From Promethearchaeota archaeon (GTDB lineage Archaea > Asgardarchaeota > Lokiarchaeia > Sigyniarchaeales > SOKP01), in the NCBI GenBank assembly GCA_019057865.1, contig JAHLWP010000010.1:54086-118085 (forward strand): a stretch of 64,000 bases of DNA, read 5' to 3'. Positions within the stretch are counted from its first letter, which is position 1. Every line of letters begins with the position of its first letter. The notes below the pieces were generated by a model. It made no database searches and was not told where the DNA came from. It worked only from the letters and a program-made list of their open reading frames with translations. Shown in pieces: positions 8,535-10,375 of the stretch. The translations under genes were made by a program, and so were the position numbers.

Positions 8535-9029
8535 TTACTTCCCTCCTTCATATTCAGGTTTATTAATCCAGTTTTCATATTCATCTTCTGGAACAAAGAA
8601 GAAATCTGTCATTTTCCCTTCTCTTACTTTGTTAAAAACAGCTCTAACTCTTCTTCCTTTTTTAATCTTAGAAGGAACTAAATTTTCTGAAAAAATTCCT
8701 TGAAGTAATGCGGTTTCTGCTCCATCTAATTTTATAAAGCCTATACTATAAGGTACGGCTTTTATAAATGCAGAAGTTGTATACCATACAATTGTGCTAA
8801 CTTCTATAGTTCCTGTTTGGTTCAATTCTACCCATTTAGCAGGAGCAAAACAATCAGAGCAATTGATCCTTGGAGGCATCCATGTCTTTCCACATTTAGT
8901 ACATTTTGTGCCCAATAGTTTTTTATTTTTCATTAATTCTAAAAAGAATTTGGATTGTCCTCCCATTGTGTATTTGTAGTTGATCCTTATTACATCTCTT
9001 ATTTGATGCTCCTGAAATTCTTCGCTCAT
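8535..9029 (-). CDS. DUF35 Zn-ribbon/OB-fold protein (thiolase partner)
   Basis: GTKCTKCGKTWMPPRINCSDC, IKLDGA, RVRAVF. Confidence 0.9.
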   Translation of the reverse strand: MSEEFQEHQIRDVIRINYKYTMGGQSKFFLELMKNKKLLGTKCTKCGKTWMPPRINCSDCFAPAKWVELNQTGTIEVSTIVWYTTSAFIKAVPYSIGFIKLDGAETALLQGIFSENLVPSKIKKGRRVRAVFNKVREGKMTDFFFVPEDEYENWINKPEYEGGK

Positions 9030-10375
9030 GGTTTTTTCAACCCCTCCTCATTTGTCATTACTATAACCGCAGCATATGCCGCTCCAGGGCCTCCTATTGA
9101 GTGAGCAATAGCTCTGCCATTTTCAATTGTTTTTATTTGATGCTTTCCAGCATCCTCTCTAAGCTGAAGTGCTGCTTCACCTGTAGACATTATCCCGGTA
9201 GCACCAACAGCATGACCACATCCAATTAATCCACCGCAAGGGCAACATGGTAATTCACCATCTAACCATGGCCCCTCCCCTGGTTTTTCAAAGGATTTTT
9301 CAATCCATGGACCACCTTCCCCAAAAGGAACAAACCCAAGCTCCTCATAAGAGATGACTTCTTATCCAGAGAATATCGAACTGATATTCATTGTCCTGAG
9401 AAGGCATCATGGAGCTCTGCTAAATCAATTTGTTCCTTTATTTTATTATAGTCTAAGCCTGCCATCTTATACGCGGCTTTTGCAGCAAAAATATTTGAAT
9501 ATAACCTTCCCATATCTTCTCTATTTCCTATAAAACAATCGGTATTTGCTGCTGCGACACCAGTAATCCAAATCGGCTTTTCAATTTTTAATTCTCTTAC
9601 TTTTTCTTCACTTGCGAGAATTAATGCTGCTGATGCTTCTGAATATAAACAACAATCAAGCATCTTGAAGGGATGACAAATTATCCTTGAGTATAGGACA
9701 TCATCTAAGGAAATTTTCATAGGGGATTGTGCTTTTGGATTGAGCATAGCATTCCCATGGTTTTTTACGCTAACTTTAGCCAATTTTAACTAATTGTTAA
9801 GATTTAAAGCCATTTGTTCTTCGGTAGGATTACCGAATTCTTCATAATGGGCGTTTACCATAGAAACGTACGAGGTTGCTGCCATCATTCCCATAGGATA
9901 TTTACGAAATATGTAGAACTTACACCATTTTTTCGTAAGTCATATCAGTAGAATAGGCGATGGCATTCAAAACTTCAGGTGTCGTAGTTCCTGTTTGTTC
10001 GTCATAGCAATCATTGCATTTTTCGACTCCTATACATAAACATAAGTCAGATAAGCCAGAAGCTACTTCTGCAAAAGCCATTCGGACAGTATATCCTCCT
10101 GTTGCTCCTCCTGTTGCTATACGAGTACCAGGTTTATTATTCATCCCTATATAGGAATTACAAAAAATATCTGGCATAAATTGTCTTTCAAATAGCTCAT
10201 TATAGATTCCATATACCGTAGATTGTAAATCCTTATGAGTTATTTCAGCACCGTTATTATTTGCGTCCTCAAGTGCTAATTTTGTTGCATCATATGCTAA
10301 TTCAAAATATGTCTTATCTAAATACTGGGCTTTAAAAGGAGTAATTCCTATACCTATAATCGCAACTTTCTTCAC
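9026..10375 (-). CDS. Thiolase-superfamily (SCP-x/Ltp-like) protein, 4 exons (10375-9932, 9900-9806, 9775-9393, 9363-9026), 419 aa after removing three predicted BHB introns
   Basis: 1350 nt minus 31+30+29 nt = 1260 nt = 419 codons plus stop. Spliced junctions read DMTYE/YPMG, EEQMAL/VSVKNH and ELHDAFSGQ/EVISYEELG. C-terminal GGLIGCGHAVGATG. The stop overlaps the DUF35 ATG (ATGA). Confidence 0.88.
9364..9392 (-). other. Predicted BHB mRNA intron 3 of thiolase 1 (29 nt)
   Basis: mRNA: GAUGCCUUCU-CAGG-AC^A-AUGAAUAUC(AGUUC)GAUAUUCU-CUGG-AU^A-AGAAGUCAUC. Exon stem 9/10 bp; central helix has one A.G mismatch. Removal restores the frame. Confidence 0.75.
9776..9805 (-). other. Predicted BHB mRNA intron 2 of thiolase 1 (30 nt)
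   Basis: mRNA: AAU-GGCU-UU^A-AAUCUUAAC(AAUUA)GUUAAAAUU-GGCU-AA^A-GUU. Contains an in-frame UAG. Spliced product is MALVSVKNH. Confidence 0.85.
9901..9931 (-). other. Predicted BHB mRNA intron 1 of thiolase 1 (31 nt)
   Basis: mRNA: U-UACG-AA^A-AAAUGGUGUA(AGUUC)UACAUAUUU-CGUA-AA^U-A. Perfect 4-bp central helix. Spliced product is TYEYPMG. Confidence 0.85.

What the first reader, a model, noticed from the sequence alone, without database searches (positions are those of the whole stretch)
9776..9805. Thiolase 1 intron 2: BHB predicts Leu where a simple duplication model predicts Lys
The insert is flanked by TGGCT direct repeats, so it could look like a target-site duplication, whose deletion gives MAKVSVKNH. 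GGCU/GGCU also self-pairs as the BHB central helix (G.U, G-C, C-G, U.G), and BHB cleavage gives MALVSVKNH. The two models differ at one codon, which makes a clean test. The intron holds an in-frame UAG.
Basis: partly seen in the sequence, partly recalled or inferred. Interest (0 to 1): 0.8.

Follow-up and report, generated by a model that had tools for sequence, protein, structure and literature searches.

The report
tRNA-type mini-intron in Asgard thiolase gene
A 30-base insert with a stop codon in an enzyme gene of an uncultured Asgard archaeon is very probably cut out of the messenger RNA by the tRNA-splicing enzymes rather than being a duplication scar, which matters because the papers I could search report such splicing inside a coding sequence for only one archaeal gene (cbf5).

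Summary
Confirmed. Window 9805-9776 (minus strand) is a 30-nt insert with an in-frame UAG, the second of three inserts (31, 30, 29 nt) in a thiolase-fold gene of a Promethearchaeota (Loki-type) genome. Removing all three at bulge-helix-bulge (BHB) positions gives a 419-aa protein about 90% identical to insert-free orthologs. The Leu-versus-Lys test favours splicing. The nearest, syntenic insert-free ortholog has GCT TTA GTT, and 0 of 69 close orthologs have Lys (Tyr 32, Leu 32). Eleven relatives carry an insert at the same site: the BHB cut gives Tyr or Leu in 12 of 12 alleles, repeat deletion gives Asn, Ile or Lys. The inner stem covaries, dN/dS is 0.02-0.07, and the genome encodes a two-subunit EndA and RtcB. 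A census of 1,218 genes found twelve 29-32-nt disruptive inserts, eight with a perfect central helix at the restoring register. Splicing is inferred: no RNA run was available. Duplication as the origin of the intron is not excluded. Shared exon flanks hint at lateral movement, but no endonuclease lies next to the gene. This scan noted such introns before on other DNA, in this and other genomes.

The parts
9776..9805 (-). Intron 2 (the finding): 30-nt BHB-type insert with in-frame TAG at 9792-9790; splits codon 180 after its second base
9808..9811 (-). Exon strand of the BHB central helix (GGCU); part of the first TGGCT repeat (9812-9808)
9778..9781 (-). Intron strand of the central helix (GGCU); part of the second TGGCT repeat (9782-9778)
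9782..9804 (-). Inner stem-loop of intron 2; two pairs show changes on both sides between allele groups
9901..9931 (-). Intron 1: 31-nt frameshifting insert, central helix UACG/CGUA with 4 Watson-Crick pairs; restores Thr-Tyr-Glu-Tyr-Pro
   Evidence: same site in L052 and L056
9364..9392 (-). Intron 3: 29-nt frameshifting insert, relaxed BHB (CAGG/CUGG, one A.G mismatch, 5-bp outer helix); restores Gly-Gln-Glu-Val
   Evidence: six relatives have a 30-nt insert at the same junction with a fully paired central helix
9932..10375 (-). Exon 1 (444 nt, GTG start)
9806..9900 (-). Exon 2 (95 nt)
9393..9775 (-). Exon 3 (383 nt)
9026..9363 (-). Exon 4 (338 nt); its stop overlaps the ATG of the next gene
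8535..9029 (-). Downstream ChsH2/DUF35 (zinc ribbon plus OB-fold) gene, overlapping the thiolase-fold stop codon

Best explanation
The 30-nt insert is an archaeal tRNA-type intron in a working protein-coding gene. In the pre-mRNA it folds into a bulge-helix-bulge; the splicing endonuclease EndA cuts after the second base of each bulge (between 9806/9805 and 9776/9775) and the ligase RtcB joins the exons, rebuilding codon TTA (Leu180). Introns 1 and 3 are removed the same way, giving a 419-aa thiolase-fold protein. Shown here: the anatomy, the restoring register, its match to orthologs, selection on the exons, presence of the enzymes. Inferred: transcription, cleavage and ligation.
For: Triple excision gives an open frame 87-91% identical to 29 insert-free orthologs. 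Residue 180 in 69 insert-free orthologs: Tyr 32, Leu 32, Cys 2, Phe 2, His 1, no Lys, Ile or Asn; the nearest has TTA. Twelve alleles carry an insert at this junction. 29-nt group (7 loci): BHB gives TAT, repeat deletion AAT. 30-nt group B (2 loci): BHB gives TAT in the only restoring register, repeat deletion ATT. Group C (window, L049, L056): BHB gives TTA, repeat deletion AAA or ATA. The first two bases of the 3' bulge vary (AA/AT) as intron bases should. Central helix paired in 11 of 11 aligned alleles; inner pairs change A-U to C-G and U-A to C-G; 90.9% of cells paired against 20-47% when slid. dN/dS 0.066 against the nearest ortholog and 0.02-0.07 among carriers, like insert-free pairs. 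Across this gene family inserts of 28-34 nt sit at 8 junctions; six have a fully paired central helix at the restoring register in at least one allele, two have 3 of 4. Census of 1,218 genes against congener G033: 15 disruptive inserts, 12 of 29-32 nt, 8 with 4/4 and all 12 with at least 3/4 central pairs at a restoring register; off-register background 7/323; harmless in-frame inserts 1/24; P about 4e-8 treating the 12 as independent. Hosts include EF-2, CdhD, a CO dehydrogenase and a Ras-family GTPase. Two EndA genes and RtcB are present; one EndA aligns with Aeropyrum alpha subunit including the K-P-R loop motif tied to broad specificity (PMC12397907).
Against: No spliced RNA was seen. The BHB of this intron is weak: two G.U pairs in the central helix, a 3-bp outer helix, fold z about -1; for this insert alone the chance of a 4/4 helix at a restoring register is about 0.04. 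The 12 alleles are related and amount to about three independent comparisons, and the covarying pairs are one change between two groups. Intron 3 has a mismatch in its central helix, so full maturation of this mRNA may be inefficient. Low dN/dS against an insert-free ortholog cannot exclude very recent inactivation of this one allele.
Confidence: 0.88

Rival explanations
1. Insertion with target-site duplication (mini-element or footprint), removed at DNA level between the TGGCT repeats to give Lys, or never removed.
For: A perfect 5-nt direct repeat lies 30 nt apart. Lys is tolerated at this position in distant homologs (24/143). The intron strand is GGCU or GGUU in all alleles rather than the Watson-Crick complement, which fits a duplicated target as the origin.
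Against: Repeat deletion gives Asn, Ile or Lys in 12 of 12 alleles; none occurs in 69 insert-free orthologs. The repeat shrinks to 4 nt in the 29-nt group and is broken in L056, while pairing is kept. In the same gene intron 1 has no repeat over 2 nt, and deleting between the 5-nt repeats at intron 3 makes a stop. Repeats at the 12 census inserts are 1-5 nt.
Confidence: 0.03
2. The gene is a pseudogene that has collected hairpin insertions; the BHB shape is incidental.
For: Three disruptive inserts in one gene; most relatives lack them; no expression data; weak fold energy.
Against: No other stop or frameshift after excision in the carriers kept for the tree; dN/dS 0.02-0.07 between carriers that share introns at dS 0.4-1.9; it is the only close copy in the genome (next match 38% identity); similar inserts break EF-2 and CdhD genes; register enrichment.
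Confidence: 0.06
3. Translational recoding: UAG read-through (pyrrolysine or suppression) leaves a 10-residue insertion, or the ribosome bypasses the hairpin.
For: This allele is in frame (30 nt) and its only stop is UAG.
Against: No PylS over the cut-off. Same-site alleles of 29 nt shift the frame and groups with TAA exist. Introns 1 and 3 shift the frame. The restored codon is built from bases on both sides of the insert, which whole-codon hopping does not explain.
Confidence: 0.02
4. Assembly or sequencing artefact.
For: The genome is a metagenome assembly with 5% contamination.
Against: Same-site inserts in 11 other loci from unrelated assemblies; the insert is in contigs of runs X3 and X6.
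Confidence: 0.01

Closest known systems
BHB intron of the cbf5 pre-mRNA in Crenarchaeota (PMC2738675; cited as the only other mRNA example in PMC7714728)
   Same: Short insert in a coding sequence, BHB-like boundaries, cut between second and third bulge residue, splits a codon, host has a hetero-oligomeric EndA.
   Different: cbf5 has one intron at one site, inherited from a common ancestor with losses. Here a metabolic gene has three introns, the family has at least 8 sites, distribution is patchy, and about 1% of compared genes are affected. Splicing of cbf5 is shown by cDNA; here it is inferred.
[quoted passage not shown]
   Same: BHB boundaries, repeated gains, unknown route of arrival, same presumed enzymes.
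   Different: That study covers tRNA genes, with focal families in Jordiarchaeia and Atabeyarchaeia; the word mRNA does not occur in it. This is a protein-coding gene of a Promethearchaeota genome.
EndA-processed BHB in the 5' UTR of Haloferax HVO_1309 (PMC7714728)
   Same: EndA acting on an mRNA.
   Different: Untranslated region; does not have to restore a reading frame.
MITE or IS footprints with target-site duplication (own knowledge)
   Same: Short direct repeat, internal hairpin, AT-rich.
   Different: Deleting between the repeats does not give the empty-site allele; repeats are not a general feature of these inserts.

Membership tests
Archaeal BHB (EndA-spliced) intron | 4-bp central helix between two 3-nt bulges with flanking helices | tested here: met
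   GGCU/GGCU 4 of 4 pairs (two G.U), both bulges 3 nt, inner and outer helices of 3 bp next to them; central helix paired in 11/11 alleles
Archaeal BHB (EndA-spliced) intron | Cut after the second bulge base restores the functional product | tested here: met
   Gives TTA as in the nearest ortholog; Tyr or Leu in 12/12 alleles
Archaeal BHB (EndA-spliced) intron | Host encodes splicing endonuclease and ligase | tested here: met
   Two PF01974 genes, one with catalytic Tyr/His/Lys positions and K-P-R loop like Aeropyrum alpha; RtcB E 1.7e-168
Archaeal BHB (EndA-spliced) intron | Spliced RNA or excised circular intron observed | not testable with these tools
   No RNA holder listed
Archaeal BHB (EndA-spliced) intron | Cleavage by EndA in vitro | not testable with these tools
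   Bench experiment
cbf5 intron proper | Lies in cbf5 at the catalytic Asp codon | tested here: not met
   Host is a thiolase-fold gene
Insertion element or MITE with target-site duplication | Deleting one repeat plus the insert gives the empty-site allele | tested here: not met
   Gives Lys, Ile or Asn; 0 of 69 insert-free orthologs have these
Homing-endonuclease-mobilised intron | Endonuclease gene inside or next to the intron | tested here: not met
   Insert is 30 nt; window neighbours are NMO and ChsH2 genes; no nuclease family among nine neighbours of carrier loci scanned, four of which had no Pfam match
Homing-endonuclease-mobilised intron | Co-conversion of exon flanks | tested here: inconclusive
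   44-nt identical exon run across the junction between window and L056 at 79% overall identity; maximum 35 in 1,622 non-carrier pairs; one pair, noticed after the fact
Pyrrolysine read-through of UAG | PylS in the genome | tested here: not met
   No match over the TIGR02367 cut-off

The most novel reading that the evidence does not exclude
Loki-type Asgard archaea routinely splice multi-intron mRNAs with the tRNA machinery, in about 1% of genes or more, and these endonuclease-less 30-nt introns move between lineages into the same exon site together with short exon flanks; some may arise when a self-pairing target such as GGCU is duplicated and forms the central helix at once.
Probability: 0.45. 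Interest if true: 0.88.

Novelty: new variant of a known kind. Interest (0 to 1): 0.74.

Why it matters
The papers I could search give cbf5 as the only BHB intron in an archaeal coding sequence. A gene that needs three excisions, in a genome where about 1% of compared genes carry such inserts, would make mRNA splicing a routine step in the archaeal group closest to eukaryotes, by a chemistry unrelated to the spliceosome. In practice, genes now counted as broken or missing in Asgard genomes (here EF-2, CdhD, a Ras-family GTPase, two thiolase-fold genes) may be intact. This intron is a good test case because splicing and repeat deletion predict different junction sequences, and sister alleles give the same test with Tyr against Asn or Ile.

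Tried and rejected
RNA evidence: no RNA holder listed; this says nothing about expression. DNA contigs of four runs showed no joint that skips exactly 9776-9805; contigs show presence, not absence, so I do not use this. Folding energy: not significant, not used as support. De novo BHB scan of the window: 8 hits without homology support, and it missed the known inserts, whose neighbours break its 240-nt open-frame requirement; the best-looking hit (51289, + strand) spans a stop and the start of the next gene and had no support for a fusion. Adjacent homing endonuclease: none found; the 950-aa gene upstream in L052/L186/L047 has only weak HTH and TFIIB-like matches. The pattern search covered only inserts of 30-42 nt, so it does not count the 29-nt group. 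Literature searches for mRNA introns in Asgard, Lokiarchaeia or Promethearchaeota returned nothing on the point; subscription journals are not covered. Three loci with poor or frameshifted alignments (L080, L101, L174) were left out of the tree and residue counts; L101 has Glu at this codon at 74% identity. Structure prediction was not run because the position is variable across the family and would not separate the models.

Full report
Observation. The window is part of a 4.26-Mb, 29% GC assembly whose close relatives are named Promethearchaeota in their records. On the minus strand a thiolase-fold gene runs from 10375 to 9026 in four pieces. The finding is the second break. TGGCT occurs at 9812-9808 and 9782-9778, and an in-frame TAG lies at 9792-9790. 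The two GGCU copies pair as a 4-bp helix (G.U, G-C, C-G, U.G) between two 3-nt bulges, with a 3-bp outer helix and an inner stem-loop. Cutting after the second base of each bulge removes 9805-9776 and gives TTA (Leu). Deleting between the repeats gives AAA (Lys), and the register between them gives a stop. The fold is not unusual by energy (z about -1), so shape alone proves little.

The host gene. Removing three inserts, 9931-9901 (31 nt), 9805-9776 (30 nt) and 9392-9364 (29 nt), at BHB positions gives a 419-aa frame 87-91% identical to 29 insert-free orthologs. The protein is related to archaeal and SCP2-type thiolases but has Gly where they have the nucleophile Cys (ortholog L122), and it overlaps a ChsH2/DUF35 gene. 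No second close copy was found in the genome.

Among 69 distinct insert-free orthologs residue 180 is Tyr 32, Leu 32, Cys 2, Phe 2, His 1; Lys, Ile and Asn do not occur. The sister of the window's gene in the tree (support 95, 86% nt identity) is L024, which reads GCT TTA GTT; the same contig (L122) has the window's gene neighbourhood. The next two relatives have TTG and TTA. Distant homologs often have Lys or Arg here (24 and 38 of 143), so Lys would probably not kill the protein; the argument rests on close relatives.

A stronger version of the test. Eleven other loci carry an insert at the same junction. In seven 29-nt alleles the BHB cut gives TAT (Tyr), repeat deletion gives AAT (Asn) and the next register a stop. 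In two 30-nt alleles (L109, L111) BHB gives TAT and repeat deletion ATT (Ile). In L049 and L056 BHB gives TTA and repeat deletion ATA (Ile). BHB thus yields one of the two common residues in 12 of 12 alleles and repeat deletion in none. The bases predicted to be exonic change together (TA+T, TT+A), while the two intronic bulge bases vary. The central helix is paired in all 11 aligned alleles, one by G-C to G.U, and two inner pairs change on both sides. These alleles are related, so this is about three independent comparisons. dN/dS is 0.066 against L024 and 0.02-0.07 among carriers, the same as among insert-free pairs.

Is the repeat a target-site duplication? Not as a rule of removal. It is 4 nt in the 29-nt group and broken in L056. 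Intron 1 has no repeat, and deleting between the 5-nt repeats at intron 3 makes a stop. As an origin it stays open: the intron strand is GGCU or GGUU in every allele, never the Watson-Crick complement, whereas most other census introns pair by Watson-Crick bases. A duplicated self-pairing target would form the central helix at once. This is inference; I put it at roughly one in four.

Genome context. Aligning 1,218 genes of congener G033 to this genome gave 15 frame-disrupting inserts, 12 of them 29-32 nt. Eight of the 12 have a fully paired central helix at a register that restores the ortholog's peptide and all 12 have at least 3 of 4 pairs, against 7 of 323 off-register positions and 1 of 24 harmless in-frame inserts (expected 0.77, P about 4e-8 if independent). 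Hosts include EF-2, CdhD, a CO dehydrogenase, a Ras-family GTPase and acyl-CoA dehydrogenases. Within the thiolase-fold family, inserts of 28-34 nt occur at 8 junctions. The genome encodes two EndA subunits and RtcB. One subunit matches the Aeropyrum alpha subunit best (E 3e-35) and keeps the K-P-R motif of the loop linked to relaxed specificity (PMC12397907), which fits imperfect motifs such as intron 3. No PylS was found.

Movement. Carriers are scattered over the gene tree. The window's intron differs by 2-3 bases from those of L049 and L056 although synonymous sites of the genes are near saturation. Window and L056 share 44 identical exon bases across the junction at 79% overall identity, more than any of 1,622 non-carrier pairs at this site (maximum 35), and identity to L024 falls to 0.74 over codons 181-220. 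The 30-nt form was found in three genera but in none of 53 congeners searched. This suggests transfer of intron plus flank, but no endonuclease gene was found beside the locus, and ordinary recombination or selection on flanks could contribute. I treat it as a hint.

Mechanism and what is shown. Most likely the pre-mRNA is cut by EndA at the two bulges and joined by RtcB (confidence 0.88). Anatomy, register, selection and enzymes are shown; transcription and splicing are inferred, since no RNA run was listed.

Comparison with the literature. cbf5 is the model: BHB-like boundaries, cut between second and third bulge residue, cDNA-confirmed (PMC2738675), and named as the only other mRNA case in 2020 (PMC7714728). 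A 2026 preprint on Asgard tRNA introns does not treat mRNA and finds no general route of arrival. My searches found no paper on coding-sequence BHB introns in Asgard archaea. Earlier agents of this scan reported the same kind of intron in this genome and in thiolase-fold genes of other genomes; those notes are not used as evidence.

Verdict. Observation confirmed, interpretation supported with qualifications. New variant of a known kind. Interest 0.74.

Noticed in passing
window 63647-63618, minus strand: A second thiolase-fold gene carries a 30-nt insert with two stops and a BHB (GGUA/UACU, bulges AU|A and AA|A); excision restores the conserved Gly-Asn-Met-Asp-His-Phe motif seen in some 30 homologs.
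   Followed up: partly
window 9295-9278, minus strand: An 18-nt in-frame extra stretch relative to L024 and many orthologs, without BHB; other orthologs have it, so it is an ordinary indel that marks two sub-groups.
   Followed up: partly
window 9392-9364 and 9931-9901: Introns 1 and 3 share the loop AGUUC, reminiscent of a tRNA T-loop; intron 3 differs in sequence from the 30-nt inserts of six relatives at the same junction, which may mean separate gains or replacement.
   Followed up: no
G000:C27 near 30478, minus strand: A 65-nt frameshifting insert in the RNA polymerase largest-subunit gene (GHFGHIEL motif) with only a 3/4 central helix; longer than the other inserts.
   Followed up: no
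G000:C82 near 40903, C2 near 3833, C41 near 42254, C28 near 11100: 30-32-nt BHB-like inserts in EF-2, CdhD, CO dehydrogenase and a Ras-family GTPase gene; in the GTPase, repeat deletion changes Val-Asp to Ala-Asn whereas the BHB cut restores the ortholog.
   Followed up: partly
L034, L075, L186: Orthologs with four inserts in this one gene (junctions 378, 457, 539, 922 of the spliced sequence), still at dN/dS about 0.05.
   Followed up: partly
window 10375-8161, minus strand: Thiolase-fold gene without the nucleophile Cys, followed by ChsH2/DUF35 and a 123-aa gene with no Pfam match; an Ltp2-like aldolase role is a lead only.
   Followed up: no
L052:2047-4902, L186:3173-6010, L047:657-3023: A large protein (about 950 aa) with an N-terminal Cys motif and weak TFIIB-repeat and HTH matches lies just upstream of the gene in three carriers of the 29-nt intron.
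   Followed up: partly
whole window: ARAGORN found no tRNA gene in the 64 kb.
   Followed up: no
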